NCBI GenBank assembly: GCA_964016885.1
Contig: OZ024757.1
Span: 27,218,001-27,282,000, forward strand
Reading direction: 5' to 3'
DNA length: 64,000 bases
From: Eledone cirrhosa
Taxonomy: Eukaryota
Shown here piece after piece: positions 3,381 to 56,533 of this stretch. A program made the position numbers and the translations under genes. The notes below the pieces were generated by a model, which saw nothing but the letters and a program-made list of their open reading frames with translations, searched no databases and was not told the origin of the DNA. Each line of letters opens with the position of its first letter. Position 1 is the stretch's first letter.

Positions 3381-4012
3381 TATATGTATATATATATATA
3401 TATACATACATAAACACACACATCATGTATATATATATATACATACATAAACACACATCATATGTACATATATATATATATATTTAAAATAAAAAAAATA
3501 TATATATATCATCTTTAATATAGAAATGGCTTCTACAAGACTAAAACTGTTTCATTCAAAAGAAATCATATGTACTATACATATGTGTTAGGTATTAATT
3601 TAACAATGAAAATAATAACAAAGTCAAGTTATTTTACCTATTCATATCATCGTTTTACAATCGTTTCGGAGGTTTGATCATATTGACATATTGACTGATC
3701 TATACCAGTTATATAACTGTATACTATCAGACCTCATATATAGGTTCGATCAGACTGTCTTTTTCGGAAACAATATATATGTATAGTATATATATATATT
3801 GTTTATATGGTCCCACCCTTGCAAGCAGGGAAAAGCGGATGTAAAATGATGATGATGATGATGATGATGACACACACACAGCATGTCCCAAAAGAATGTA
3901 CACACACTTTGATTAGAAGTCTGTTGAAGTATGTATACATTTTTGGGGACACCCTGTATATGTATGTATATATATACACATATGTTGTTGAGGTTATATT
4001 ATATTCAATCTA

Positions 4013-4986: not shown

Positions 4987-5058
4987 ATTTCAGCTGATGA
5001 ATGGGCTGGACGTTTCTGTGAGAATAGTCTTGTTTCTTGAAACCTTTAGTAATGGAAT
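4987..5058 (+). ncRNA. Hammerhead ribozyme-like motif (partly degenerate)
   Basis: ATTTCAg-CTGATGA(4994)-stem II-GAAA(5039)-CCTTTAG-TA-aTGGAAT. Same family as 25111-25178. Confidence 0.55.
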
Positions 5059-5213
5059 AATTATATTGTGTTGTTTATTATGTAAATATATATATATATA
5101 TATATAGGCCAGGAAAGGGATAGGCTCCACCAGGCGTAAAATGCCCAAGAGACACCGTTTGTGAATATGGCACCCTTATGACTCTATCAGGAGATACGGA
5201 ACCATACCATATA

Positions 5214-6970
5214 TATCATCATCATCGTTTAACGTCCGTGTTCCATGCTTGCATGGGTTTGGACGGAGGGTTTTCCCACTTGAGGCAAGAGTGGTTATCT
5301 TGCTCGCATAGGACTATCTGGCGGGTTTTCTACAGCTGGATGCCCTTCCTAACACCAACCACATTTACAGTGTGGGGCTGGGAGGTTTTTACCGTGTTGC
5401 CTACACGGCCACATTACAGCGTGAACTGTGTGTTTTTTGACGTGACACCTACACAATCTCATTTGTTTCGGCCTGGATGTTGTGGCACCAACATAACTTT
5501 ACATTGAAAGGGGCGGTGTGGATGGGGTGGGGGTGGTGGGACGGGGGTGTATTTTGTTAGAGATGCCTACTGACTGTAGTAGGTTTTACTTTGTATTTAG
5601 GTAAGGCGGGTCTTCTCTATTACTGAGTACCGCCAAAGGTCTCGGTCCAGTGACATTGTCTTGGTGAGGTGTAAGTGTGTGAGGTCGGAATTTATCAGCT
5701 CGTCCCAGGTTTTTCTGGGTCTGCCTATTCCGTGGCTACCGTCTATCTTTATTGCCCTGCACTTTGTTATACAGCTATCGTCCTTCATGCGCATCACGTG
5801 ACCATACCAACGTAGCCTTCTCTCGAGTAAACAACATCTGATCCCTCTTATTTCTAATTTTTTCCTTAGTTCGTTTATGCTTTGCCGTTCACGTATATTA
5901 CTATTACACATCCAGCGGAGCATGCAAGCTTCGTTTCTCTCTAGTCTGCGTATATCCTCTGCACACAATGCCCAGGTCTCACTGCCATGCAACATTGCTG
6001 TTCGTATGCAGGCATCGTACAACCTGCCTTTCATTTTTAGGGAGAACCCTTTAGCGGCTAATAGTGGTATGAGCTCTCTGAACTTTTTCCACCCAGTTCT
6101 GACTCTAGCTACTGTACTTTCAGAGCACCCTCCCCCACTGCTGATTTTGTCACCCAGGTAACAGAAGGTGTCCACTATTTCTATAGAACCATCTGTGCAA
6201 TGGAATGAGCTAGTATTTTATGGGCACTTGCTGCTACTTATTGCACCAGAGCACCGGCCACATGTAAAATCTATGTTCTTAGTTAGCTTACCTGTGATCC
6301 CACTACATCTTTTATGCACCCAAACTTTGCATTTGGGACACAAAATGGAGTTTCTACCTACGCCTTTCCTACACTCTGAGCATGGCCACTTCCCGGAGGG
6401 GACCGCCACCTTGTTTTCTTTCTTACAAACTAGAACTTTAGTCTTAGCCAGGTTAATTTTAAGGCCTTTTGATTCTAGGCCGTGCTTCCATGTTTGGAAT
6501 TTCTTCTCTAGCTCGGCCATTGTTTCAGCTATGAGCGTTAGATCATCTGCATATAGGAGTTCCCATGGGCAGCCGGTCTTGAACTCCACTGTTATAGCCT
6601 GGAGGGCAATAATAAATAGTAGGGGGCTAAGAACAGAGCCCTGATGAACACCAACTTTTACACTAAACTCTTCACTATATTCGTTGTTAATTCTAACCTT
6701 GCTGACTGTTTCTTTATACATGGCTTGTATAGCTCTCACTAACCATTCATCAACACCTAGTTTTCTAAGAGCCCACCAGATAATGGAACGGGGGACTCTG
6801 TCGAAGGCTTTCTCCAAGTCGACGAAAGCTAAGTATAGGGGTTTACTTTTAGCTAGGTACTTCTCCTGTAGTTGTCGTACAATGAAAAGAGCGTCTGTGG
6901 TACTTTTTCCTGACACAAACCCGAACTGCATTTCATCAAGATCAATTCGCTCTCTGATTAGTTGCGCTAT

Positions 6971-6975
<5 letters not shown>
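5214..6975 (-). mobile_element. 5'-truncated RTE LINE (subfamily A variant), ORF broken by a premature stop
   Basis: ORFs 6218-6975 and 5597-6175 are one RT frame split by TAA (CAA>TAA at about 6218). 3' UTR and (GAT)n tail present; flanked by (TA)n. Confidence 0.92.
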
Positions 6976-7000
<25 letters not shown>

Positions 7001-7004
<4 letters not shown>

Positions 7005-7107
7005 AGCAAGACAATCACTCTTGCCTCAAGTGGGAAAACCCTCATCCAAACCCATGCAAGCGTGGAACACGGACGTTAAACGTTGATGATGATGATGATG
7101 ATGATGA
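7001..7107 (+). mobile_element. Very short RTE-A 3' end
   Basis: TGCGAGCAAGACAATCACTC...GGACGTTAAACGTT(GAT)n inside (TA)n. Confidence 0.85.
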
Positions 7108-10054: not shown

Positions 10055-10133
10055 AAGCTGTCTGATGAGATCATGGCACTGGTTAGGCGGAATCGTGTGT
10101 CCACTGTCGTCATTGAAATATGTATCACAGCCT
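10055..10133 (+). ncRNA. Type I minimal hammerhead ribozyme
   Basis: GCTGT-CTGATGA(10062)-stem II (GAT.ATGGCA.TGG / CCA.TGTCGT.ATT)-GAAA(10115)-TATGTA-TC^ACAGC. Stem I GCTGT/ACAGC, self-complementary stem III, AUC cleavage triplet. Confidence 0.8.
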
Positions 10134-10259
10134 TATCAATAAAGGACTTTAACATCTGAAACTACTTCGCATTTTCTTATTTTATATATATAAGTTTATC
10201 CCGAGTTCAATCGGAGGTAACCACAGTAAGTAAGGTACTCAAAACATAGCAGAGTATAA

Positions 10260-10389
10260 ATATTTAATATAGAAATGCCTTCTACAGGACTAGAACTGTT
10301 TCATTCAGGAGAAATCATCAGGGCTTCCTGATGATTTCTCCGGAATGAAACAGTTCTAGTCCTGTAGAAGCCATTTCTATATTAAATAT
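10260..10389. repeat. About 60-bp-arm inverted repeat carrying back-to-back hammerhead cores
   Basis: Arms 10260-10321 and 10328-10389. CTGATGA-TTTCTCCGGAAT-GAAAC...GTC on + with a mirror copy on -. Related partial copy at about 3515-3570. Confidence 0.8.
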
Positions 10390-10650
10390 ATATATAGTAA
10401 TAATAATAAATGTGAAGACTAAAATCCAAAGAGGGCTCGATAAGGGTAAATATATATCAAATATATAAGAACCCTAGAGCAAATATTTATTAATATATAT
10501 ATATTTTATCTGCTCCTATTATTCATATGTTTTCCACCTCAGTTACCTTATATAAATATTAATGCTTGTGCTTATCTAACCTCTCATAATATATATCCTC
10601 CAAATGTTCTTGAAGCAAAGTTTTGATCTTATATTTGTGTTTAACTTTTG

Positions 10651-10767: not shown

Positions 10768-10970
10768 AAAGAGTCAGGACCCCGACGGCTGAGCTCCGGC
10801 CATTTCAACAGTTAGATCCAAACATTCGGTGTTCGGATCTAGCTGTTGAAATGGCTGGAGCTCAGCCGTTGGGGTCCTGACTCTTTTTCTATTACCCACT
10901 CTACTACTCCAAGTATCATGTGCTCTGGTGTGTTATGGTCCACCTGGTTTCTTACCACACTTTCTTTGTT
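10768..10970 (+). mobile_element. Fold-back (hairpin + shared tail) element in (TA)n, divergent member
   Basis: About 55-bp-arm inverted repeat followed by tail CCCACTCTACTAC...CTTACCAC...TTTGTT. Homologous to 19954, 20757 and 29381. Confidence 0.8.
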
Positions 10971-10981
10971 ATATATATATA

Positions 10982-11130
10982 TCATCATCATCATCGTTTA
11001 ATGTCTATCTCCCACGCTAGCATGGGTTAGACGGGAGTTGTCCCACTTGAGGCAAGATTGGTTGGGTGATCGTGTCTTGCTTGTATAGGACTATCTGGCA
11101 GGTTTTCTACGGCTGGATGCCCTTCCTAAA
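10982..11130 (-). mobile_element. RTE-related 3' end fragment
   Basis: (CAT)n, CCACGCTAGCATGGG, GGATGCCCTTCCTAA. Similar copies at 25257-25500, 25935-26190 and 54233-54440. Confidence 0.75.
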
Positions 11131-11157
11131 TATATATGTATAAATACAATATATATC

Positions 11158-13422
11158 CTCAGGAGGAAAATATGGAAGTTAAAGGACCCCACAGCCAGGA
11201 ATAAATTTCAAAGCATATTACTTGATGCTTTCGACAGTAAGGAAGAACATTTAGAGTCGGACAATATAGAGGGAGAGTGGGAATTTCTGAAAGCAAACCT
11301 GCTGTTGGCGACAGACGAGGTCTGTGGCTGGAGCAGGCCTGTAGGCAGGAGGAGAGTAACATGGTGGTGGAACAGTAAGGTGGAGGGGTCAATTAAGGCC
11401 AAAAAGCAGGCTTGGAAAGTATGGCGGGATGGGGGAAGTAGAGAGGACTATCAAGTGGCCAGGAGGGAAGCTAGGAGACAAGTGTACTTAGCAAGAAGGG
11501 AAGCTGAGGAAAGAAAGTTCAAGCATGTTCTACAACGCGATGACCAAAAACGTGAGGTGTTCAGGATTGCTAGGCAATGCGTCAAGGAAAACCGTGATAT
11601 TGTCGGGGAGAAGTGTGTACTAAACGACGATGGCACACTTGCCATCACCGACGCTGATAAGAAGGTAGCTTGGAAGTGTCACTATGAAAGGCTTCTAAAT
11701 GAGGAGAATAATTGGGAGAAAGGCAGTCTCCCCCATATCGACCCAATAGAGGGACCAGCAGTGTTAGTCGAGGGGAGTATAATAAGTAAGGCAATCAAGG
11801 ATATGAAGACTGGTAAGGCGGCTGGGCCTTCGGAAATAGTTGCTGAGATGCTGAAGGCATCTGGCACGGTGGGACACACCATGGTCACCCGCATAGTTAA
11901 CCAAGTCGTACAAAACGGGGTTGTTCCGAAGGACTGGCATAGCAGCATCATCGTTAACTGTTATAAGGGTAAAGGAGACGCCCTAGATAGGAGTAACTAT
12001 AGAGGCATTAAATTAATCGACCAGGTCATGAAGGTCACGGAAAGAGTAATAGCGCAACTAATCAGAGAGAGAATTGACCTAGATGAAATGCAGTTCGGGT
12101 TTGTGTCAGGCAAAAGTACCACAGACGCTCTTTTCATAGTACGACAACTACAAGAGAAGTACCTAGCTAAAGGTAAACCCCTCTACTTAGCTTTTGTCGA
12201 CTTGGAGAAAGCCTTCGACAGAGTCCCCCGCTCCATTATCTGGTGGGCTCTTAGAAAACTAGGCGTTGACGAATGGCTTGTGAGGGCTATACAAGCCATG
12301 TATAAAGAAACAGTCAGCAAGGTTAGAATTAACAACGAATATAGTGAAGAGTTTAGCGTAAAAGTCGGCGTCCATCAGGGCTCTGTTCTCAGTCCACTAC
12401 TATTTATTATTGCCCTTCAGGCCATAACAGAGGAGTTCAAGACAGGCTGCCCATGGGAACTCCTATACGCAGACGACCTGACACTCATAGCGGAATCAAT
12501 GGCCGAGCTAGAGAAGAAATTCCAAACATGGAAGCACGGCCTAGAGTCAAAAGGACTTAAAATTAACCTGGCTAAGACCAAAGTACTAGTTTGTAGGAAA
12601 GAAAACAAGGCGGCGGTCCCTTCTGGGAAATGGTCGTGCTCGGTGTGTAGGAAAGGCGTAGGTAGAAACTCCATTTTATGTCCTAAATGCAAAGTATGGG
12701 TGCATAAAAGATGTAGTGGGATCACAGGTAGGCTAACTAAGAACATAGATTTTACATGTGGCCGGTGCTCTGGTGCAATAAGTAGCAGCAAGTGCCCACA
12801 AACTACTAGCTCTTTCAATTGCGCAGAGGGTTCTATAGAAATAGTGGACAGCTTCCGTTACCTGGGCGATAAAATCAGCAGTGGGGGAGGGTGCTCTGAA
12901 AGTACTGTAGCTAGAGTCAGAACTGGTTGGAAAAAGTTCAGAGAGCTTATACCACTATTAGCTGCTAAAGGGTTCTCACTAAAAATGAAAGGCAGGTTGT
13001 ACGATGCCTGCATACGAACAGCAATGCTGCATGGCAGTGAGACCTGGGCATTGTGTGCAGAGGATATACGCAGACTAGAGAGGAACGAAGCTTGCATGCT
13101 CCGCTGGATGTGTAACAGTAATATACGTGAACGGCAAAGCATAAACGAACTAAGGAATAAATTAGAGATAAGAGGGATCAGATGTTGTTTACTCGAGAGA
13201 AGGCTACGTTGGTATGGACACGTGATGCGCATGAAAGTCGATAGCTGTATAACAAAGTGCAGGGCAATAAAGATAGACGGTAGTCACGGAATAGGCAGAC
13301 CTAGAAAAACCTGGGACGAGCTGATAAACTCCGGCATCACACACTTACACCTCTCCAAGACAATGTCACTGGACCGAGACCTTTGGCGGTACTCAGTAAC
13401 AGAGAAGACCCGCCTTACCTAA
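11158..13422 (+). CDS. RTE ORF: tether (WWN) + RT + PHD finger + C-terminal domain, uninterrupted
   Basis: TWWWN, KAAGPSEI, YRGIKL, DLEKAFD, QGSVLSP, YADD, CSVC-x10-CPKC-x4-H-x2-C-x14-CGRC, YLG, GRPRKTW, DRDLWR. Confidence 0.92.
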   Translation, partial: LRRKIWKLKDPTARNKFQSILLDAFDSKEEHLESDNIEGEWEFLKANLLLATDEVCGWSRPVGRRRVTWWWNSKVEGSIKAKKQAWKVWRDGGSREDYQVARREARRQVYLARREAEERKFKHVLQRDDQKREVFRIARQCVKENRDIVGEKCVLNDDGTLAITDADKKVAWKCHYERLLNEENNWEKGSLPHIDPIEGPAVLVEGSIISKAIKDMKTGKAAGPSEIVAEMLKASGTVGHTMVTRIVNQVVQNGVVPKDWHSSIIVNCYKGKGDALDRSNYRGIKLIDQVMKVTERVIAQLIRERIDLDEMQFGFVSGKSTTDALFIVRQLQEKYLAKGKPLYLAFVDLEKAFDRVPRSIIWWALRKLGVDEWLVRAIQAMYKETVSKVRINNEYSEEFSVKVGVHQGSVLSPLLFIIALQAITEEFKTGCPWELLYADDLTLIAESMAELEKKFQTWKHGLESKGLKINLAKTKVLVCRKENKAAVPSGKWSCSVCRKGVGRNSILCPKCKVWVHKRCSGITGRLTKNIDFTCGRCSGAISSSKCPQTTSSFNCAEGSIEIVDSFRYLGDKISSGGGCSESTVARVRTGWKKFRELIPLLAAKGFSLKMKGRLYDACIRTAMLHGSETWALCAEDIRRLERNEACMLRWMCNSNIRERQSINELRNKLEIRGIRCCLLERRLRWYGHVMRMKVDSCITKCRAIKIDGSHGIGRPRKTWDELINSGITHLHLSKTMSLDRDLWRYSVTEKTRLT

Positions 13423-19238: not shown

Positions 19239-19575
19239 AGGGAGGCACATGGCTTAGTGATTAGAGCATTGGCCTTGCAATCGAAAGGTTGAGTTCAAAT
19301 CTCAGACCGGGTGATGTGTTGTTTCCTTGAGCAAGACACTTTATTTCACATTGCTCCAGTTTACTCAGCTGTAGAAATGAGATGATAGAGACTGGGGTCT
19401 ACATCATTCCACTGCAAAGTGGTCGTGGAGGTGCCACGGCAAAAAAGCACCCAGCATTCACTGTAAATGAGGTTGGTGTTAGGAAGGGCATCCAGCTGTA
19501 GAAATCAAGCCAGAATCAGTTCCCGTCCCACCCTTGCAAGTAGGGAAAAAGCGGACGTAAAATGAAATGAAATGA
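19239..19575 (+). mobile_element. Full-length tRNA/CORE-like SINE with RTE-B-derived 3' tail
   Basis: TGGCTTAGTGATTAG (A box), GAGTTCAAATC (B box), TCCTTGAGCAAGACACT core, tail CCGTCCCACCCTTGCAAGTAGGGAAAAAGCGGACGTAAAATGA. Copies at 23510-23790 (+) and 55985-56193 (-). Confidence 0.8.
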
Positions 19576-19953
19576 TAGATAGATAGTCATACTCTTGTAC
19601 ACTGTATATGATATATACTTCATCATCATCAATTAACGTCTGTTTTTGTTGCTAGCAAGGGCTCAAAGGGTTAACAGTCCTCTTAGATGGGCCAAGGGCC
19701 TGCAAGTTGCTTATTTATGTTCCTGCATCTCACTTATATATGATAACCAATGTAACACCAACACTCATGAGGTTATCATGCAGATGTCACAACAAAAAGC
19801 ACCCAAAACACACTGTAAAGTGGTTGGTGTTAAAAAGAACATCCAGCCATAGAAACTGAGCCAGAATCATTTCTGTGAGCAAGACATGGTTACCTGATTT
19901 GACTTGCTTCAAATGGACGTTAAACGATGATATATATATATATATATATATAT

Positions 19954-20149
19954 GAAAAAGTATGACCCCGACGGCAGAGCTCAAGACGTTTCGACGGCTA
20001 TTTCTGGACTCAGTCCAGAAATAGCCGTCGAAACGGCTTGAGCTCTGCTGTCGGGGTCATACTTTTTCCTATTTCCCACTCTACTACCCTAAGTATTGAG
20101 TACTCTGGTGCGTTATGCTCCATCTGGTTCCTTACCATATTTCCTTTGT

Positions 20150-20152
<3 letters not shown>
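19954..20152 (+). mobile_element. Fold-back element (hairpin + tail) in (TA)n
   Basis: Near-perfect inverted repeat 19954-20068, then an about 85-bp shared tail. Confidence 0.85.
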
Positions 20153-20756: not shown

Positions 20757-20758
<2 letters not shown>

Positions 20759-20952
20759 GGAAAATATATGACCCCAACGGCAGAGCTCAAGCCGTTTCGA
20801 CGGCTATTTCTGGAGTTCAGAAATAGCTGTCGAAACGGCTTGAGCTCTGCTGTTGGGGTCATATATTTTCCTACTTCCCACTCTACTACCCTAATTATTG
20901 AGTACCTTGGTGCGTTATGGTCCATCTGGTTCCTTACCACAATTCCTTTGTT
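20757..20952 (+). mobile_element. Fold-back element (hairpin + tail) in (TA)n
   Basis: Inverted repeat 20757-20873 plus shared tail. Confidence 0.85.
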
Positions 20953-21319
20953 ATATATATATATATATATCAGCATCATTGCACGAATTAGCCGAGTTGT
21001 CCTGTTGTGGGCAATGTTAGGTCAGGTGACCATGTCTAGCATATATATATATATATCATCATTTTTACATCCAGGTCCTTCTCAGCACAGCATCTCTCCA
21101 ATTGCTGTGTTCCTTTGTCATCTCCTCTATGAGTCTTAGCGATTTTATAGTTTTTAGGTATAAAGACAAAATCATAGAGAATTTCTAATGTGATGCACGC
21201 AAACTACTGTTTTATACTTTAAGAATACCTTGCCAATGTGGTTTCATATGGTACAGGACATTAAAAGTTAAAGCTTCTACAAATGGCAGGACACACAATA
21301 TCATATTTTCAAGGAACTG

Positions 21320-23352: not shown

Positions 23353-25074
23353 TGTATATATTTACATATATATATATATGCATACATATCTATACATATA
23401 TATATTTAGTAGAAATAAAAGCTTTCGCTTTTTAGGATGCTAGTGGGCTTTTAAAATCCTCTAAAAATGGAAAAGGATGAGTATATATATATATATATAA
23501 CGGAACAAATATGACCGGGTGATGTGTTGTTTCCTTGAGCAAGACACTTTATTTCACATTGCTCCAGTTTACTCAGCTGTAGAAATGAGATGATAGGGAC
23601 TGGGGTCCATATCATTCCACTGCAAAGTGGTCGTGGAGGTGCCACAGCAAAAAAGCACCCAGCACTCACTGTAAATGAGGTTGGTGTTAGGAAGGGCATC
23701 CAGCTGTAGAAATCAAGCCAGAATCAGTTCCCGTCCTACCCTTGCAAGTAGGGAAAAAGCAGACGTAAAATGAAATGATGATGATGAATGATGATATATA
23801 TATATATATATATACATATATACACACTACACACACACAAGACAACCACTGAATCCTGTCTCATACATTGCTCATATTCAGATGTACGTGACAAAATTAC
23901 AAAAATTGTCAATATTTTTTGATGACTATTTGTTATTTTTTCCTGCTTGTTTTGTTTTATTTTTAGAAAAAATATTTTTAATTTGTAATTTACACAATAA
24001 TAATAATAATTATTGTGTGGATTGGCAGTATCGGTAGAGTGTCGGACAACATACTTTGTGGCACAGAGTTACAGCCTTTGCATTCTGAGTTAAAATCCTG
24101 CTGAAGTCATCTCTGCGTTATCTCTGCTCTATGGGGGTCGATAAATAAAATACCAGTAATGCACTGGGGTCAATTTAATCGATTTCCCCTCCCCAAAATT
24201 GTTGGCCTCGTGTCTAAATCAGAAACCATTATTAATTAATGTTAGAGTGTTGGACAAATTGTTGTATTCCGGTTCATTACATTATCAGTTCAAATACTGT
24301 TCAAGTTAACTTTGCTTTTCATTCCTTTGGGTTGATAAAATATAGTGTACTTGGGGTCAATTTAACCCTTTAGCATTTAAACCAGCTGTATCCGGCCAGA
24401 ATTCTTTCCCCTTTTTGAAACCGGCCATAACCAGCAGCTCAAACCTGCCAAACAAAGATCGGGAGGGTCCTTCAGCTGTATCAAAGTCATGACAACCTCC
24501 TGAGTGCTGGTGCTGTGATAAAATGAACTAGGTAGAGCATGGGAATGTAAATGAGATGCAGGCCCCTGGCTCATCTGTAAGGTCAGCAGCACTGCTTCAA
24601 TACTGATTTGGCCTATGACGACCCATCTTACCTTTGCTAGCAGGTAAAAAGGATGTATGAGGATGATCCGGCCAAATTTACAGTCCCCACAGGAGCAAAG
24701 TGTGACATAGCCAACCCTGGCCAGACTTGCTTCCTGGCATGGAGGACCCATCTAATCCACGCACGCATGGACGAATTGACACTAAACAGAAATGATGATG
24801 ATGATGATATATATATATGTGTGTGTGTGTGTAAAAGGTACATAGAAAAAATAAAACAAACAGTACAGAATATGGAAGGAATATATTAGTTTAATGCTTG
24901 AAATATCAGGAAGAGTGTCTTAACGTTTTGGATGCTAGTCCTTCATCAGAAGAAAGACTGAGAAATTAGAAAGATTGAGTGGTTGGGCAGGGTGGAAATA
25001 AATATATATATATATTAGGTAATTCCGAAGAAAAAGCAAAGGATAAAAGAGTGCTCTATGTATAGAACAGAGCT

Positions 25075-25255
25075 ATTTAATTAGGAAATGAACAACACAA
25101 TATATAATTACTCCATTACCAAAGGTTTCTGGATCCTAGACAATATTAATATATGCCTGGATCGTTCATCAGTCAGAGATGTTATAAATAGAAAATATCC
25201 TGAAACCTTTGGTAATGGAGTAGTTATATATTGTGTTGTTCACTTTCTAACTAAA
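25075..25255 (-). ncRNA. Inverted repeat with hammerhead motif on - strand (25111-25178)
   Basis: Minus: CTGATGA-acGATCC.AGGCA...TGTCT.aGGATCca-GAAA-CCTTTGG-TA^ATGGAG. Arms 25075-25130 and 25201-25255. Confidence 0.65.
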
Positions 25256-25504
25256 TCATCATCATCATCATCACCGTTTTACGTCCGTTCTTCCACGCTA
25301 GCATGGGTTAGATGGGCTGTCCTGTTGTGGGCAGTGTCCAGTCGGCTGACCTTGTCTTGCTCATACGGGAACCGATTGTAGCTTGCTTTCTACAGCTGGA
25401 TGCCCTTCCTAACACCAACGTCATTTACAGTAAGTGGTGGGTGCTTTTTTCCGTGGCACCTCCACGACCACTTTGCAGTGGGAGGGTGTGGTGGCATATT
25501 GTCT

Positions 25505-25801: not shown

Positions 25802-25872
25802 TATTTTATTATGCGCATTTCAAAAACAAATATCATCCTGGGACGATATTTGCGTTCTCATCAGATAAAATA
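25802..25872 (-). ncRNA. Intact type I hammerhead ribozyme
   Basis: Minus: TATTTTAT-CTGATGA-GAACGCAAATATCGTCCCAGGATGATATTTGTTTTT-GAAA-TGCGCA-TA^ATAAAATA. 8-bp stem I, long stem II, palindromic stem III ATGCGCAT. Confidence 0.88.
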
Positions 25873-28320: not shown

Positions 28321-29019
28321 TGAAGGAGTTTGTGTTGTTGTTGGTTGGATTGTCTTAGTTAAGGGGGTAGAGGCAGAGGAGCAACACTTCCTACCACCCC
28401 TCTCCTACACACACACACACACCACAGAATCTGAGGAAACAGCATGTGATCACCACAATACCACTCAACATCTGTAGCAATGGAGGGAGTCTCTAAGTGA
28501 GCATTTGACATACTAGAAATAACAGCCAAACCTTCCTCAAACCATGCCCTATCATTGAATAATCTAATCTGGTCATAGACAGTCCCTAAAAAGATGAGTT
28601 GATCCTGGTTGGAATGCCTTTAATCACAGGTTTACCCCAAACAAGACTAACCCAGGGTGAAATAACTAACTCCATGCAATGTTGGATTTACCATTGTGCT
28701 TAGGTGTGCTTAAGCACAGGGCTCCGTTGGCCATCTTCCTACCCCAAAAAGTTATGAGGCCGCATTAGGGACCATGTAAGTGGCCTCATAACTTAACTAG
28801 CTTATGGCTTCATTCATCCTAAATCTGGCACCGACTGCACGTCACCCTTATTTTACTTCTATCATTTAAACAATATTGTTTTAACCCGTGTCTTTCCCAG
28901 GTATCTTCTGGTCACACACACTTTCCGATACTCTAGCCAACATACTTGTTGGTAGAAATAATTTACTGGTCAGTTACTGGAAAATTGGAAAAGTTGGACC
29001 ACTCTTCATATCTATATAA

Positions 29020-29260
29020 CCAAATAAAGAGATTATATGTATATACAGAGAGAAAAAGAGCCATATATCGCACAAGAAACCTGGTATATTGTATATATAC
29101 CAAATACATATTCTATAAAAGAATATGTACACAGGTGGAATCATTAGATATTCTTCTATAGAATATATATTTGGTATATATACAATATACAGTGTTTCTT
29201 GTGTGATATATCGCTCTTTCTCTCTATATATATACATATATCTCTTTATTTGGTTATTAT
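29020..29260. repeat. Degenerate long inverted repeat
   Basis: Arms about 29020-29127 and about 29147-29260; contains GAAACCTGGTA. Confidence 0.7.
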
Positions 29261-29380: not shown

Positions 29381-29572
29381 ATAGGAAAAAGTATGACCCC
29401 GCCGGCAGAGCTCAAGCCGTTTTGACAGTTATTTCTGGACTGAAATAGCCGTCGAAATGGCTTGAGCTCTGCCGTCGGGGTCATACTTTTTCCTATTTCC
29501 CACTCTACTACCCTAAGTATTGAGTACTCTGGTGCGTTATGGTCCATCTGGTTCCTTACCACAATTCCATTG

Positions 29573-29575
<3 letters not shown>
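29381..29575 (+). mobile_element. Fold-back element (hairpin + tail) in (TA)n
   Basis: Inverted repeat 29381-29495 plus shared tail. Confidence 0.85.
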
Positions 29576-29601
<26 letters not shown>

Positions 29602-29603
<2 letters not shown>

Positions 29604-29790
29604 ATAGCTTTCACCATATTTTTGACTAAAGAAATTTTAGCCTGATAATGGTGTTTAGAACCCTCAGATAAATGGAAAAAGATGAGTATTGATGTACATC
29701 AATACTCATCTTTTTCCATTTATCTGAGGGTTCTAAACCCCATTATCAGGCTAAAATGTCTTTAGTAAAAAATACGGTGAAAGCTATTCT
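29602..29790. repeat. About 93-bp-arm palindrome centred on GATGTACATC, adjoining (TA)n
   Basis: ATAGCTTTCACC...GAGTATTGATG|TA|CATCAATACTC...GGTGAAAGCTAT. Related half at 23410-23485. Confidence 0.85.
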
Positions 29791-29975
29791 ATTTTCTAAT
29801 TTCAAACCTGCTCACTGTTTCAAAACATACTTACTCATCATATATATATAAGTTGATAATACAATAGTAAGGTGTTCAGGTATTTAAAGCTGAAATGTGG
29901 ATTATTCTATATCCAGATTAGCGAAAGGTATTTCAGAGGTAAATCCAGTTGATATACTTCCGGTCATTTAAGATT

Positions 29976-30567: not shown

Positions 30568-30625
30568 ACTGCTATATATATATTTCGATGATAGCCATTG
30601 AATGGCTATGACCTCATCAGGCAGT
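30568..30625 (-). ncRNA. Intact type I hammerhead ribozyme
   Basis: Minus: ACTGC-CTGATGA-GGTCATAGCCAT-TCA-ATGGCTATCATC-GAAA-TATATATA-TA^GCAGT. Confidence 0.85.
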
Positions 30626-30740: not shown

Positions 30741-32390
30741 AGGCCGGACCATCGGGAATAGTTGCTGAGATGCTGAAGGCATCAGGGGACGTAGGCACTA
30801 AACTGGTTGCACGCATAATCAATCAGGCTATATATGGTGGTGTCATACCCAAAGACTGGTGCAGCAGTATTCTCATAAATTGCTACAAAGGTAAAGGGGA
30901 TGCTTTGGAGAGGAGCAATTATAGGGGTATAAAACTGATAGATCAGGTTATGAAAGTGGCAGAAAGGATTTTAGCACAACTAATTAGAGAAAGGGTCAAA
31001 CTAGATGAGATGCAGTTTGGTTTTGTGCCTGGGAAGAGTACAACAGATGCCCTCTTCTTGGTGAGACAAATGCAAGAGAGGTTCTTAGAGAAGAATAAGC
31101 CACTATACTTGGCCTTTGTTGACCTAGAGAAGGCCTTTGATAGGGTACCCCGATCTGTCATCTGGTGGTCCCTAAGGAAGCTGGGTGTTGAGGAATGGCT
31201 TGTAAGGACAGTGCAAACTTTGTACAGAGGTACTCTCAGTAAAGTCAGGGTAGGAATGGAGTTTAGTGAGGAATTCCAGATACAAGTAGGAGTACATCAG
31301 GGTTCGGTCCTCAGCCCGCTCTTGTTCATTATAGTCCTCCAAGCCATAACAGAGGAGTTTAAGACTGGCTGTCCATGGGAACTTCTCTATGCTGACGATC
31401 TGGCTCTTATGGCAGAATCAGTAGAGGAGCTAGAGAATAAATTCCGGCTATGGAAACAGCAGTTGGAAGCAAGAGGACTGAGAGTAAATCTAGCTAAGAC
31501 AAAAGTGTTGATGAGTAGAAAAGAGGACAAAACCCTGATTCCGTCAGGGAAATGGCCATGTTCGATATGCAGAAAAGGAACTGGCATAAATTCTATAAAA
31601 TGCACACAATGTAGGTCCTGGGTACACAAGAGATGTAGCGGGATAGCAGGCAAACTAACAGGTAGGGAGAAATATGTATGCAGTAGATGTACAGGGAAAT
31701 TAGACAGTAGAAGTCGCACTGATAGACACATTTTTCAAATGCGAGAGGGCGCTATAGAAGTGGTGGATAACTTCCGGTACCTAGGAGATCAGATTAGCAT
31801 GGGAGGAGGGTGTTCCGAGGCCATAGTATCTAGAATAAGGACGGGTTGGAAGAAGTTTAGGGAGCTGCTTCCTCTGTTGACGAAGAAGGGTTTCTCCCTG
31901 CGTACGAAAGGCCGGTTGTATGATGCCTGTGTGAGGAGCGCGATGCTGCATGGTAGTGAGACATGGGCAGCTACCGCAGAAGATATGCGACGGCTGGAGA
32001 GAAATGAGGCAAGCATGCTCCGTTGGATGTGCAGTGTAAATGTGCGTGAACGACCCAGCATAAATGTGTTGAGAGAGAAACTGTGTCTGAGAGGGATAGA
32101 ATGTAGTGTACGGGAGAGGAGACTGAGGTGGTATGGACATGTGATGCGCATGGAGGATGACCGATGGGTGAAGAAGTGCCAGGAAATGCCAGTTGAAGGA
32201 AGACGTAGTAGAGGTAGACCACGAAAAACATGGGCGGAGGTGGTGAGAACAGACCTCAGATCATTGAAGCTCACGGTGGAGATGACGAGGGACCGTGACG
32301 AGTGGAGAGATGCTGTGCTGAATAAGACCCGTCCCACCCTTGCAAGCAGGGAAAAGCGGACGTAAAATGATGATGATGATGATGATGATG
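30741..32390 (+). mobile_element. 5'-truncated RTE LINE, subfamily B
   Basis: RT ORF runs to 32365, almost directly into the (GAT)n tail (no long UTR); 5' end in (TA)n. Confidence 0.95.
30743..32365 (+). CDS. RTE-B reverse transcriptase with PHD finger, truncated
   Basis: AGPSGIVAEMLK, YRGIKL, DLEKAFD, QGSVLSP, YADD, CSIC...CTQC...HKRC...CSRC, FRYLG. Confidence 0.9.
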   Translation, partial: AGPSGIVAEMLKASGDVGTKLVARIINQAIYGGVIPKDWCSSILINCYKGKGDALERSNYRGIKLIDQVMKVAERILAQLIRERVKLDEMQFGFVPGKSTTDALFLVRQMQERFLEKNKPLYLAFVDLEKAFDRVPRSVIWWSLRKLGVEEWLVRTVQTLYRGTLSKVRVGMEFSEEFQIQVGVHQGSVLSPLLFIIVLQAITEEFKTGCPWELLYADDLALMAESVEELENKFRLWKQQLEARGLRVNLAKTKVLMSRKEDKTLIPSGKWPCSICRKGTGINSIKCTQCRSWVHKRCSGIAGKLTGREKYVCSRCTGKLDSRSRTDRHIFQMREGAIEVVDNFRYLGDQISMGGGCSEAIVSRIRTGWKKFRELLPLLTKKGFSLRTKGRLYDACVRSAMLHGSETWAATAEDMRRLERNEASMLRWMCSVNVRERPSINVLREKLCLRGIECSVRERRLRWYGHVMRMEDDRWVKKCQEMPVEGRRSRGRPRKTWAEVVRTDLRSLKLTVEMTRDRDEWRDAVLNKTRPTLASREKRT

Positions 32391-37119: not shown

Positions 37120-37266
37120 GATCATCATCATCATCATCATTTTACGTCCGCTTTTCCCTGCTTGCAAGGGTGGGACAGGTCCTATTCAGCATAGCATCTC
37201 TGCACTTGTCACGGTCCTTCGTCATCTCCACTGTGAGCTTCAGTGGAGATGACGAAGGACCGTGAC
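37120..37266 (-). mobile_element. RTE-B 3' end with fold-back at its 5' junction
   Basis: (CAT)n + RTE-B tail; 37208-37233 is inverted at 37241-37266. Confidence 0.8.
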
Positions 37267-37282: not shown

Positions 37283-38295
37283 ACAGTCCACGCTGTAAAT
37301 GTGGCCGTATAGGCAACACGGTAAAAACCTCCCAGCCCCACACTGTAAATGTGGTTGGTGTTAGGAAGGGCATCCAGCTGTAGAAAACCCGCCAGACAGT
37401 CCACGCTGTAATGTGGCCGTGTAGGCAACACGGTAAAAACCTCCCAGCCCCACACTGTAAATGTGGTTGGTGTTAGGAAGGGCATCCAGCTGTAGAAAAC
37501 CCGCCAGACAGTCCACGCTGTAATGTGGCCGTGTAGGCAACACGGTAAAAACCTCCCAGCCCCACACTGTAAATGTGGTTGGTGTTAGGAAGGGCATCCA
37601 GATGTAGAAAACCCGCCAGACAGTCCACGCTGTAATGTGGCCGTGTAGGCAACACGGTAAAAACCTCCCAGCCCCACACTGTAAATGTGGTTGGTGTTAG
37701 GAAGGGCATCCAGCTGTAGAAAACCCGCCAGACAGTCCACGCTGTAATGTGGCCGTGTAGGCAACACGGTAAAAACCTCCCAGCCCCACACTGTAAATGT
37801 GGTTGGTGTTAGGAAGGGCATCCAGATGTAGAAAACCCGCCAGACAGTCCACGCTGTAATGTGGCCGTGTAGGCAACACGGTAAAAACCTCCCAGCCCCA
37901 CACTGTAAATGTGGTTGGTGTTAGGAAGGGCATCCAGCTGTACAAAACCTGCCAGACAGTCCATGCTGTAATGTGGCCATGTAGGCAACATGGTAAAAAC
38001 CTCCCAGCCCCACACTGTAAATGTGGTTGGTGTTAGGAAGGGCATCCAGCTGTACAAAACCTGCCAGACAGTCCACGCTGTAATGTGGCCATGTAGGCAA
38101 CATGGTAAAAACCTCCCAGCCCCACACTGTAAATGTGGTTGGTGTTAGGAAGGGCATCCAACTGTAGAAAACCCGCCAGACAGTCCTATGCGAGCAAGAC
38201 AACCACTCTTGCCTCAAGTGGGAAAACCCCCGTCCAAACCCATGCAAGCGTGGAACACGGACGCTAAACCTGATGATGATGATGATGATGATGAT
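37283..38295 (+). repeat. 8 x 112-bp tandem array of RTE-A 3' UTR, ending in the normal RTE 3' terminus
   Basis: Units start ACAGTCC at 37283, 37396, 37508, 37620, 37732, 37844, 37956 and 38068; a final ACAGTCC at 38180 continues to (GAT)n. Confidence 0.95.
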
Positions 38296-43770: not shown

Positions 43771-44455
43771 GTTTATGTATTTCTCCTTAGATTGGAAAAA
43801 AATGAAATTAATATGCATTACAAATATAGCATTTGTAGTGATTTGAGAAAAAACAAACAAAAGTATGCTGTAATCCAGGAATTATATCAAATATTATTTT
43901 AATATAAATCCTATCATATTTGAGGGGTGCTACCTAGTATATGTGTATATATCATCATCATTTTAAGCCTGCTTTTCCATGCTTACACACACACACATAT
44001 ATATATATATATAATTGTTTATACTTTTGGCACAAGGCCAGCAATTATCCCAGTACATTACTGGTACTTTATTTTATCGACCCCGTAAGGATGAAAGGCA
44101 AAGTTAACCTCGGCGGGATTTGAACTCAGAATGGCAAGGTCCGTAACTCTATGCATCAAAGCATTGCGTCCGACCCTCTACCGATACTGCCAATCCACCG
44201 CCCCTAATATATATATATATATATATATATAATGAAATGTAGTTTGCTTGAAGCACTGTATATAATATATTATATAATGTGGAAAGTGATATATGCCTAA
44301 ACAAGGCAAAATGGATGGTAAGATGAAGGTAAGGAAACATTTAGTTACCTGGCAAAAAAACAAAGAGTACCAGGTAAGTAAACTTTTCGTTACCTTCATC
44401 TGATCGGCCATTTTGCCTTGTTTAGTCTTAAATCACTTTCCACATTATATAATAT

Positions 44456-44523
<68 letters not shown>

Positions 44524-44674: not shown

Positions 44675-44846
44675 TATCATGTGATGCACATGGAGGATGA
44701 CCGCTGGGTAAAGAAGTGCCAAGAAATCCCAGTAGAAGGAAGACGCAGTAGAAGAAGACCGTGACAAGTGGAGAGATGGTGTGTTGAATAGAACCCGTCC
44801 CACCATGGCAAGCAGGGAAAAGCGGACGTAAAATGATGATGATGAT
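44675..44846 (+). mobile_element. RTE-B 3' fragment with internal deletion
   Basis: CATGTGATGCACATGGAGGATGAC...ACCCGTCCCACC...GGACGTAAAAT(GAT)n. Confidence 0.85.
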
Positions 44847-44997
44847 GCAACATCGTCAGTGGTGCTATTATGTTTCCTCCTGTTGTATTGTATGCCTACG
44901 CCATCTTTCGAAGATGCTGTAGGCATACAATACAACGGGAGGAAACATAATAGCACCACTGACGATGTTGCAGATGTGCAACGAAAGAACTTTGTTA
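44846..44997 (+). ncRNA. About 62-bp-arm palindrome running into a hammerhead motif (44953-44996)
   Basis: Arms 44846-44908 and 44910-44972. CACCA-CTGACGA-tGTTGCA-GATG-TGCAAC-GAAA-GAAC-TT-TGTT. Confidence 0.65.
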
Positions 44998-45191
44998 GAC
45001 TATATATATGTATTTGTGTCTATATTATATCTGTATTTTTGACCGTTGGTCAGTCAATGGTAACATTGAGGACCGAATAAATTAAATTAACCGATATAAA
45101 AGACAGAGAAGTGAAAACCAACCAAATAGTGAGTGTGTTCTGTTATTAATTCTGGCAATATTATTACACAAATATGACCCTCCCCAAGTAT

Positions 45192-54896: not shown

Positions 54897-56238
54897 GGAG
54901 GAGGAGGAGGAGGAGGAGGAGGAGAAGAAGAAGAGTTAAAGAGAAACAGGTAAAGGAAGAGAGAAAAACGAAAGAAAACAAAGAAAGAAGGAAAGCAGGT
55001 AAGGAAAGAGAAGGAAAGAAGGATAGAAAGAAAGAAAAAGCATAGAAAAGGAAAGAGAGAAGGACATGGAGGAAGAATGAAAGGAAAAAAAGGAAGAAAG
55101 AACGGAAGAGAAAAAGAAAGAAAGATGGTAAGAAGAGAGAGAGAGAGAGAGAGAGCTGAGTCAGGTGTTCTGTGGTAGGTAATTTGTTGTATATAATAAA
55201 CTCTGTGGAAAAGTGGTTGTTTTCTGGTTAAAATTACTACAAATAGACATTCCATCACGTTGCCCTTCAGTGCAACTGTCTGTCTCTCTTCACCTCTACT
55301 TGTCACCCCCTCTCTCTCACTATCTATCTATGTATTTGTCTATCTATCTATTTTCTCACTTTTACTATTTATCTATCTCTGTGTCTGTCTATATATCTAT
55401 ATCTATCTATCTATCTATCTATCTATCACTAAATTTAAAGCAAACCTATTACTTATGGTGAGCTACACTGATTGAGTGCTGATTAAGAGGTCAATAAGAT
55501 CAGATGCCGTTCCAGATTGTAGGTCAGTAGGTTCAAATCCCATGGGGGTAACTAGCCTATTGTGTTGTTCATATTATTGGTGTCCATTATAATTATTACT
55601 ACTACTAGGGCGGTGGATTGGCAGTATCGGTAGAGGGTCGGACGCCATGCTTTGACGCATAGAGTTATGGCCCTTGCCATTCTGAGTTAAAATCCCGCTG
55701 AGGTTAACTTTGCCTTTCATCCTTATGGGGTCGATAAAATAAAGTACCAGTAATACACTGGGTAATTGCTGGCCTTGTGCTAAAAGTAGAAACAATTATA
55801 ATTATTACTACTACTTAGCCCAATGTTTAACACAGCGAATAAGTAATCTTCAATTATGCACACACACAAGTGTGTGTGTGTAATGCATGAAATTGCATGC
55901 TAGAAGGTGGCTGAATCGATAAAAATGCAGTTGTATGTTCAGCTTATGTAACTTTTTCTGCTAATACTATATATATCATGTATCATATCATCATCATCAT
56001 CATTTTACGTCCGCTTTTTCCTGCTTGCAAGGGTGGGACGGGAACTGATTCTGGCTTGATTTCTACAGCTGGATGCCCTTCCTAACACCAACCTCATTTT
56101 ACAGTGAGTGCTGGATGCTTTTTTGCCGTGGCACCTGCACGACCACTTTGCAGTGGTATGATAAGGACCCCAGTCCCTATCATCTCATTTCTAATATATA
56201 TATATATATTTATGTAATAAACAGCATAAGGCAATTAT

Positions 56239-56296
56239 TCCATTTACCAGTGGTTTCTTAAAAGCAAAAAATTTTGCTTTCAATCATCAGAATGAA
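56239..56296 (-). ncRNA. Intact type I hammerhead ribozyme (left arm)
   Basis: Minus: TTCATT-CTGATGA-TTGAAAGCAA...TTGCTTTTAA-GAAA-CCACTGG-TA^AATGGA. Confidence 0.85.
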
Positions 56297-56372
56297 AAAA
56301 TCCTGGTCTGTTTATTGAATTTGGATTCTAAAAACTTATTGAATCCAAATTCAATAAACAGACCAGGATTTT

Positions 56373-56430
56373 TTCATTCTGATGATTGAAAGCAACATTT
56401 TTTGCTTTTAAGAAACCACTGGTAAATGGA
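56373..56430 (+). ncRNA. Intact type I hammerhead ribozyme (right arm)
   Basis: TTCATT-CTGATGA(56379)-TTGAAAGCAACATTTTTTGCTTTTAA-GAAA(56412)-CCACTGG-TA^(56424)AATGGA. Confidence 0.87.
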
Positions 56431-56533
56431 ATAATTGCCTTATGTTGTTTATTACATAACTATTAAGCTCTGTTACCTACATAGAGCACTCTTTTTTCCT
56501 GGACTTTTCCGACGGAATTACTTCACATATATT

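What the first reader, a model, noticed from the sequence alone, without database searches (positions are those of the whole stretch)
56210..56459. Young 250-bp palindrome encoding two intact outward-facing hammerheads
Seen: near-identical arms, each with a complete ribozyme (6-bp stem I, 10-bp stem II, ACCA-C-TGGT stem III, GUA^). Either transcription direction yields one sense ribozyme plus its antisense, so folding competes between a 120-bp dsRNA and an active ribozyme. The right arm continues into a unique tail (to about 56530) before (CA)/(TA)n, the same hairpin + tail architecture as the other families. Established: inverted partial pseudo-LTRs typify Penelope-like insertions.
Basis: partly seen in the sequence, partly recalled or inferred. 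Interest (0 to 1): 0.7.

Follow-up and report, generated by a model that had tools for sequence, protein, structure and literature searches.

The report
Two-armed Penelope retrotransposon end insertion
This mirror-image stretch with two self-cutting-RNA motifs is one of many short insertions in TA repeats, likely left when a Penelope-type jumping gene copied the end of its RNA onto both sides of a DNA break, and it is predicted to fold into plain double-stranded RNA rather than act as a ribozyme switch.

Summary
The palindrome is real: arms 56210-56328 and 56341-56459, 119 bp, 2 mismatches, each with a hammerhead facing outward. It is one copy of an abundant family. Other copies end at two fixed points, 56463 and about 56525, both into (TA)n, and turn at variable places. 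This is the published Penelope layout: inverted 5'-truncated copy plus one-sided tail. The hammerhead has the Hydra-clade form (stem III ACCA-N-TGGT, as in Hydra-1_Obim), and Penelope-13_HM already lists one hammerhead on each strand for the same reason. Each arm holds sequence the other lacks, so two cDNAs were likely joined head to head. The proposed folding competition is not supported: in both directions the antisense arm is made first, the duplex wins by about 80 kcal/mol, and the ribozyme is predicted to need a dimer. No coding parent was found, so clade membership is unproven. This scan reported the same two-armed layout before, on other DNA of this genome. An ordinary new member of a known kind.

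The parts
55968..56193 (+). Older host repeat, cut off here; not part of the element
   Evidence: 92% identical to copies at 23580-23808 and 19372-19584, which continue where this one stops; the continuation was found nowhere else in the window
56194..56209 (.). (AT)8 left flank, the likely target; no target duplication can be resolved
56210..56335 (-). Short arm: inverted, 5'-truncated copy ending at the family's first fixed 3' end (outer edge 56206-56210, blurred by the AT run)
   Evidence: family end after 56463 (mirror 56206)
56238..56297 (-). Type I hammerhead, left copy; predicted cut between 56245 and 56244
56329..56335 (-). 7 nt of family sequence carried only by the short arm
   Evidence: matches the end of the loose-end consensus upstream of 56341/56342 in other copies (3 and 31 contigs, run X1); an X6 contig lies on 56263-56335
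56336..56340 (.). 5-nt junction filler, likely a short snap-back extension of the long-arm cDNA
   Evidence: extends a 4-bp terminal hairpin of the minus strand to 9 bp, -1.1 to -5.7 kcal/mol; inference, seen once
56341..56463 (+). Long arm, part shared with the short arm
56372..56431 (+). Type I hammerhead, right copy, Hydra-clade form; predicted cut after A56424
   Evidence: family variation fits the fold
56464..56525 (+). One-sided tail of about 62 nt between the two fixed 3' ends
   Evidence: loose ends after 56463 and 56525 both run into (TA)n; related tail at 25008-25075
56467..56487 (+). 7-bp hairpin starting 4 nt past the short end
   Evidence: folds here and in the related 25-kb element; common variants at 56474-56477 fall in its loop
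56526..56596 (.). (TA)/(CA) microsatellite, right flank
25008..25256 (-). Related, older element with the same two 3' ends; one degenerate hammerhead, the short arm cut inside it
   Evidence: 76% over 124 nt
4990..5101 (+). Related single arm with a degenerate hammerhead, ending at the same short end
   Evidence: start approximate

Best explanation
This is a short head-to-head insertion between TA-type microsatellites, likely the 3' end of a Hydra-type Penelope-like retrotransposon that was likely copied twice from uncut RNA, once onto each side of a DNA break, and then joined. Shown: the anatomy, the high abundance of the family, two fixed 3' ends into (TA)n, variable turning points, and sequence private to each arm. 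Inferred: a GIY-YIG endonuclease cut both strands in (TA)n; one end primed reverse transcription at the inner start (56463), the other at the outer start (about 56525); both ran through the ribozyme, stopped 7 nt apart, and were joined with a 5-nt filler. The 62-nt tail is then the distance between the two starts. Two whole hammerheads result whenever both cDNAs pass position 56372. The copy is likely inert: a read-through RNA is predicted to be a 119-bp duplex. In the parent RNA the ribozyme likely acts as a dimer or with protein help.
For: Fixed ends: after 56463 into (AT)n in 21 contigs (X1) and 238 and 230 raw reads (X11, X12); after 56525 into a TA run in 33 contigs (X1). Variable turns: 7 of 9 listed joints change strand, at 7 different coordinate pairs; 8 cross-axis joints are listed. 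Private sequence: the tail is only on the long arm, 7 upstream nt only on the short arm. Same short end in relatives at 25 kb and 5 kb; same layout in 4 of 4 copies of a second family. Hydra form: Hydra-1_Obim has stem III acca-a-tggt, lies about 100 nt from the 3' end and prefers (TA)n; Penelope-13_HM lists a hammerhead on each strand from an inverted 5'-truncated copy. Inverted copy plus tail is standard. A purified Penelope-like enzyme cuts and extends both strands, starts at two sites that bound the tail, and uses uncut RNA. Family variants fit the fold: N7 T>G in 743 of 1649 reads; two G.U pairs become Watson-Crick (56409 T>C, 561 of 1600; 56429 G>A, 772 of 1692) in X11; none of the 40 listed variants hits a conserved core base.
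Against: No RT or GIY-YIG gene is linked to this family: 0 of 149 window frames hit such a Pfam family (23 of 172 candidate frames were not scanned), no genome is held, and 7 family motifs gave no match at a hammerhead or element end in the supplement of PMC8557442. The tail (62 nt) is longer than the published 30-40 bp. All 9 palindromes measured in the window have arms of 26-119 bp, short for fragments of a 2.5-kb element. Joining of two cDNAs has not been shown experimentally; PMC11167929 leaves the later steps unvalidated. hides 16 variant rows and keeps only reads at least 85% alike, so core invariance is partly built in. The 7-nt private piece rests on a loose-end consensus of 0.67-0.93 agreement.
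Confidence: 0.8

Rival explanations
1. Same insertion mechanism, but the template is a small protein-free RNA (a Penelope-dependent mini-element or retrozyme unit), not the end of a coding element. This differs from the best explanation only in the source RNA.
For: No coding parent found. Summed depth falls towards the 5' side and many joints sit at 56342-56371. One joint runs from 56462 back to 56343 in direct orientation (1 contig each in X1 and X2, one sample). Retrozymes are proposed non-autonomous derivatives of these elements.
Against: No tandem monomers at this locus or at the two relatives. The family continues at least 30 nt upstream of 56341. The hammerhead has a long stem II and the Hydra-type stem III, not the 4-bp helix II described for canonical metazoan hammerheads. 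The 5' fall in depth is confounded by subfamily divergence and edge effects.
Confidence: 0.3
2. One cDNA folded back and copied itself, giving the inverted arm.
For: The long-arm minus strand can snap back at its end, and the 5-nt filler fits such a step. Three copies of the second family turn at or next to one small hairpin.
Against: Self-copying would centre the palindrome near 56347, not 56334/5, and cannot supply the 7 nt that the long arm lacks. It also does not explain why the inverted arm stops at a fixed family end.
Confidence: 0.07
3. A selected RNA switch in which duplex and active ribozyme compete.
For: Both cores are intact.
Against: Antisense is made first in both directions; about 80 kcal/mol favours the duplex. 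Two whole ribozymes are a common outcome: 7 of 8 listed joints and 5 of 7 leave both intact. Intact cores are expected at 2 mismatches in 119 bp.
Confidence: 0.03
4. A MITE-like DNA transposon with long terminal inverted repeats.
For: Near-perfect inverted repeat in a TA context.
Against: Unequal ends, a one-sided tail, a variable centre, single-arm relatives and a conserved RNA fold.
Confidence: 0.02
5. Assembly or library artefact (chimeric fold-back read).
For: No listed piece spans the whole locus in the runs laid.
Against: The arms differ at 2 sites and by private ends, so one is not a copy of the other. Like joints occur in contigs and raw reads from 2 studies. The right unique flank is present in an X2 contig with 1 difference over 98 nt.
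Confidence: 0.02

Closest known systems
Hydra clade of Penelope-like elements, incl. Hydra-1_Obim and Penelope-13_HM (Craig et al. 2021, PMC8557442; passages, sections 11 and 15, supplement part 2 of 59 and term searches)
   Same: Hammerhead near the 3' end with an extra base after the first core box and a palindromic 4-bp stem III round one base (acca-a-tggt in Hydra-1_Obim); (TA)n target; inverted 5'-truncated copy giving a hammerhead on each strand (Penelope-13_HM).
   Different: Stems I and II and flanks differ from Hydra-1_Obim by eye, so this is another family. No reading frame is linked. Tail 62 nt against 30-40 bp. The whole insertion is about 320 bp.
Minimal hammerheads of metazoan Penelope-like elements (Cervera and de la Pena 2014, PMC4209133; parts 1-2 of 4)
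   Same: Long helix II, extra base after position 9, palindromic stem III, dimer-dependent. That paper already reports pairs 100-700 bp apart on opposite strands in Schistosoma.
   Different: Stem I (7 bp) and stem II (9-10 bp) are a little longer than the 4-5 and 7-8 bp given for Schistosoma.
Poseidon element of Anolis, PAc (Frangieh et al. 2024, PMC11167929; parts 1-2 of 4, passages)
   Same: Two RT start sites bounding the tail; both target strands cut and extended; uncut RNA as template; a stem-loop at the start region.
   Different: Other clade; its hammerhead overlaps the start codon; the paper does not address head-to-head joining in the parts read.
Animal non-LTR retrozymes (PMC7229834, passages; bioRxiv 10.64898/2026.07.22.740005, part 1 of 5)
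   Same: Non-coding as seen here; type I hammerhead; linked to Penelope-like elements.
   Different: Defined by head-to-tail tandem units; none here.

Membership tests
Type I hammerhead ribozyme | Core CUGANGA, GAAA, NUH with stems I-III | tested here: met
   0 in 40 shuffles; family variants fit
Type I hammerhead ribozyme | Stable active fold as a monomer | tested here: not met
   stem I probability 0.03-0.05; 1-nt loop 3. Dimer is the cofold minimum for 3 of 4 lengths tried
Type I hammerhead ribozyme | Match to an Rfam hammerhead model | tested here: not met
   no hammerhead family listed at gathering score or at E<=10; a library gap is likely
Type I hammerhead ribozyme | Self-cleavage | not testable with these tools
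   needs an assay
Endonuclease-bearing Penelope-like element insertion | 5' truncation with an adjacent inverted copy | tested here: met
Endonuclease-bearing Penelope-like element insertion | One-sided tail between two fixed 3' ends | tested here: met
   ends at 56463 and about 56525; 62 nt, longer than the published 30-40 bp
Endonuclease-bearing Penelope-like element insertion | Telomerase-like RT plus GIY-YIG reading frame in the parent | tested here: inconclusive
   none in 149 window frames; genome not held
Endonuclease-bearing Penelope-like element insertion | Partial tandem (direct pseudo-LTR) in some copies | tested here: inconclusive
   one direct joint 56462 to 56343 in one sample
Hydra clade | (TA)n target | tested here: met
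   shared with Naiads, so not diagnostic alone
Hydra clade | Canonical hammerhead near the 3' end, Hydra form | tested here: met
   compared by eye with the table
Hydra clade | Protein motifs (RWK, DKT, no CCHH, CxCX5C linker) | not testable with these tools
   no linked protein
Non-LTR retrozyme | Head-to-tail tandem units, each with a hammerhead | tested here: not met
   none at this locus or its 2 window relatives; rest of genome not seen
Non-LTR retrozyme | Circular RNA | not tested
   no RNA holder listed
MITE | Symmetric fixed terminal inverted repeats | tested here: not met
   unequal ends, variable centre

The most novel reading that the evidence does not exclude
The Penelope hammerhead works mainly as an RNA dimerisation device. 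Two template RNAs pair as a double hammerhead, a dimeric enzyme copies one onto each end of the break, and the cDNAs tend to be joined just upstream of stem I, where the two RNAs are held together. That would explain both the inverted copies and why a barely active ribozyme is kept. For: the cofold minimum of two single-arm RNAs is the double hammerhead, and 6 of about 12 distinct listed joints have both ends within 56360-56371. Against: Naiads make inverted copies without canonical hammerheads, one RNA read twice fits equally well, a CCWGG microhomology lies in the same stretch, and the joint lists are cut.
Probability: 0.08. Interest if true: 0.65.

Novelty: new member of a known kind. Interest (0 to 1): 0.22.

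Why it matters
By itself little: the layout and opposite-strand hammerhead pairs are published. The use is as data. A family with many short copies, two fixed starts and variable joints lets one test from genome sequence alone how Penelope-like elements make their inverted copies, a step the papers read here leave open. Such insertions may also be a source of perfect 50-120-bp RNA duplexes for editing or small-RNA pathways (untested), and are easy to mislabel as MITEs or microRNA precursors (one search lists such matches, all below threshold).

Tried and rejected
Own-genome search: no genome held. Rfam: no hammerhead match; hairpin look-alikes all below their gathering scores. Pattern scans for a longer copy: 0 in metagenome contigs, 0 in genome contigs, 8 in viral contigs, all rejected because stem I was 0-2 bp and BLAST found nothing. 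Pfam on 149 of 172 candidate frames (RTE-type reading frames left out beforehand): 3 weak unrelated hits below cut-off. Supplement of PMC8557442: 9 short motifs searched, 6 absent, the passages shown for the other 3 lay in unrelated sequence. Sequencing runs: no RNA holder listed. Places where many reads begin or end in X11/X12 (56348, 56433/56436, 56519) all sit on AATT and are taken as restriction cuts of the RAD library, not biology (the enzyme is my inference); they hide the outer end in those runs. Summed depth of about 2:1 for shared part against tail in X1 fits two arms per insertion, but X4 shows about 1:1 and the tool warns against this use, so it is not counted. A possible endonuclease C-terminus in the bases upstream of stem I was considered by eye and dropped. 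Empty-site test: no listed joint bridges the flanks, and repeats were skipped, so nothing follows. Cofold of the arm with its whole tail did not give the double hammerhead. Earlier-findings searches by place, sequence and words found nothing on this family. Six literature searches found no paper on this family; I did not search for the dimerisation idea as such.

Full report
Observation. The palindrome is real. Arms 56210-56328 and 56341-56459 are 119 bp with 2 mismatches and a 12-nt spacer. A hammerhead lies on + at 56372-56431 and its mirror on - at 56238-56297. Stem I is 7 bp, stem II 9-10 bp, and stem III is ACCA-C-TGGT. A scan asking for stem I >=5 and stem II >=4 finds these two motifs only, and none in 40 block shuffles. 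Rfam lists no hammerhead here. The window is microsatellite-rich animal DNA with LINE-type RT frames. Earlier notes call the genome octopus-type; I did not test this.

The family. Public runs hold the element in great depth: 4405 of 12.5 million RAD reads in X11 lie on the 202-bp arm plus tail, and 2885 contigs in X1. Thousands of copies is my rough inference; these figures are not copy numbers. Variation fits the ribozyme fold. In X11, N7 is G in 743 of 1649 reads, and two G.U pairs become Watson-Crick (56409, 561 of 1600; 56429, 772 of 1692). Loop 2 is variable. None of the 40 listed variants hits a conserved core base, but 16 rows are hidden and only reads at least 85% alike were laid. At the 56273/56396 mismatch the left arm has the common base (1215 of 1361 reads).

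Ends and turns. Copies end at two places: after 56463 into (AT)n (21 contigs in X1; 238 and 230 reads in X11 and X12) and after 56525 into a TA run (33 contigs in X1). The first is where this palindrome's left arm ends; the second is the end of its tail. Turning points vary: 7 of 9 listed joints change strand, each at its own coordinates, and one search lists 8 joints across the axis (18 more joints hidden). Both ribozymes stay whole in 7 of those 8 and 5 of those 7, so two intact hammerheads are a routine outcome. The two lists share run X1 and overlap. Relatives at 25008-25256 and near 5000-5101 stop at the same short end, and the first has the same tail. A second family shows the same layout in 4 of 4 window copies.

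The junction. Other copies read ...GTTTTTA-GAATCC upstream of 56341. So 56329-56335 is family sequence that only the short arm carries, while only the long arm carries the tail. Neither arm can be a plain copy of the other, which points to two cDNAs. The remaining 5 nt (56336-56340) extend a 4-bp end hairpin of the long-arm minus strand to 9 bp, as a brief snap-back would. That is one case, noticed after the fact.

Mechanism. Craig et al. (PMC8557442, passages) describe an inverted 5'-truncated copy, a one-sided 30-40-bp tail and microsatellite targets as standard. Frangieh et al. (PMC11167929, parts 1-2 of 4) show a purified enzyme that cuts and extends both strands, starts at two RNA sites bounding the tail, and prefers uncut RNA. 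Here both arms run through the predicted cut site, which fits an uncut or religated template. The most likely history is a double-strand cut in (TA)n, priming from both ends at the two start sites, short extension, and head-to-head joining. The joining step is inferred; I took this two-primer wording from earlier notes on this genome and tested it on this family. A 7-bp hairpin starts 4 nt past the short end and recurs in the 25-kb relative. This agrees with a lead in those notes; I could not see the region past the outer end.

Does the ribozyme work here? Probably not. The antisense arm comes first in both directions. All 5 prefixes of a + read-through fold with the ribozyme region paired, and forcing the hammerhead costs about 80 kcal/mol on either strand. 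A single arm hardly forms stem I (probability 0.03-0.05). Two 60-nt arm RNAs cofold into the double hammerhead as their minimum (-29.4 against -20.4 kcal/mol for two monomers). This held at two longer lengths but not with the whole tail. Cervera and de la Pena (PMC4209133, parts 1-2 of 4) found no cleavage for a single such motif and low cleavage for dimers.

Comparison. The published Hydra-clade table (supplement part 2 of 59) shows the same form: Hydra-1_Obim has stem III acca-a-tggt about 100 nt from its 3' end and prefers (TA)n. Penelope-13_HM is listed with a hammerhead on each strand and an inverted 5'-truncated copy. Cervera and de la Pena already report pairs 100-700 bp apart on opposite strands. 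So this works like a Hydra-type insertion. Membership is unproven because no protein is linked: 0 of 149 window frames hit an RT or GIY-YIG family, and pattern scans found no longer copy. A protein-free source RNA remains open (0.3). Most of that supplement, and the supplements of the other papers, were not read and could hold this family under another name.

Age. 2 of 119 mismatches gives about 2.3 Myr (0.3-8.4) using 0.0036 per Myr from a passage in PMC13282606. The clock is borrowed, the species is not established, and gene conversion between arms would shrink the figure. The host repeat on the left is 92% identical to its window relatives, so it is older. That paper counts 336 recently active Penelope-like insertions in Octopus vulgaris and does not contain the words hammerhead or ribozyme.

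Verdict. Observation confirmed; Penelope-type origin supported; folding switch not supported. A new member of a known kind, and a layout this scan has already reported elsewhere in this genome. Interest 0.22. The boldest reading left open is that the hammerhead dimerises two templates for the two-ended insertion (probability 0.08).

Noticed in passing
window 10768-10970, 19954-20150, 20757-20953, 29381-29577: Four copies of a second hairpin-plus-tail family between TA runs, with fixed short end and an 80-nt tail. Three turn at or beside the same small hairpin just before a GAAAC-like box; the CTGANGA half is missing from all four, so a hammerhead is only suspected. Annealing of two cDNAs at a self-complementary stem could explain the shared axis.
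   Followed up: partly
window 10190-10394, 3511-3569, 10057-10131: Third family: palindrome with a hammerhead core in each arm turning inside stem I, tail on the minus strand; a single-arm relative at 3.5 kb; a further loose hammerhead-like motif at 10057-10131.
   Followed up: partly
window 29603-29845, 23430-23484: 93-bp arms with no spacer, plus tail, directly beside the 29381 element (shared TA run); a diverged relative at 23.4 kb.
   Followed up: partly
window 44846-45010: 62-bp-arm palindrome whose hammerhead-like core lies at the outer end of one arm and runs into the tail, a different register from the other families.
   Followed up: no
window 29016-29257, 44207-44513, 37208-37266: Further palindromes: two diverged (84% and 76%), one perfect 26-bp hairpin just before the 112-bp tandem array.
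   Followed up: no
window 55968-56209: The host repeat is cut off where the (AT)8 begins and its remainder is not found beyond the insertion, so an earlier event or a deletion made this boundary.
   Followed up: partly
window 25802-25872 (-), 30568-30625 (-): Two more loose hammerhead-like motifs with weak stem II (5 loose hits in the window against a shuffle mean of 0.05).
   Followed up: no
window 1749-3422, 5597-7075, 11089-13422, 30743-32365: LINE-type RT frames (RTE-like by recall); the first and third are 99% identical over 1675 nt, so very recent.
   Followed up: no
window 37283-38186: 112-bp tandem array, 8.1 copies, 98% matches, built from part of a dispersed repeat.
   Followed up: no
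window 56343-56462 (family copy in runs X1, X2): One direct joint from the short end back to 56343; partial tandem or nested insertion.
   Followed up: no
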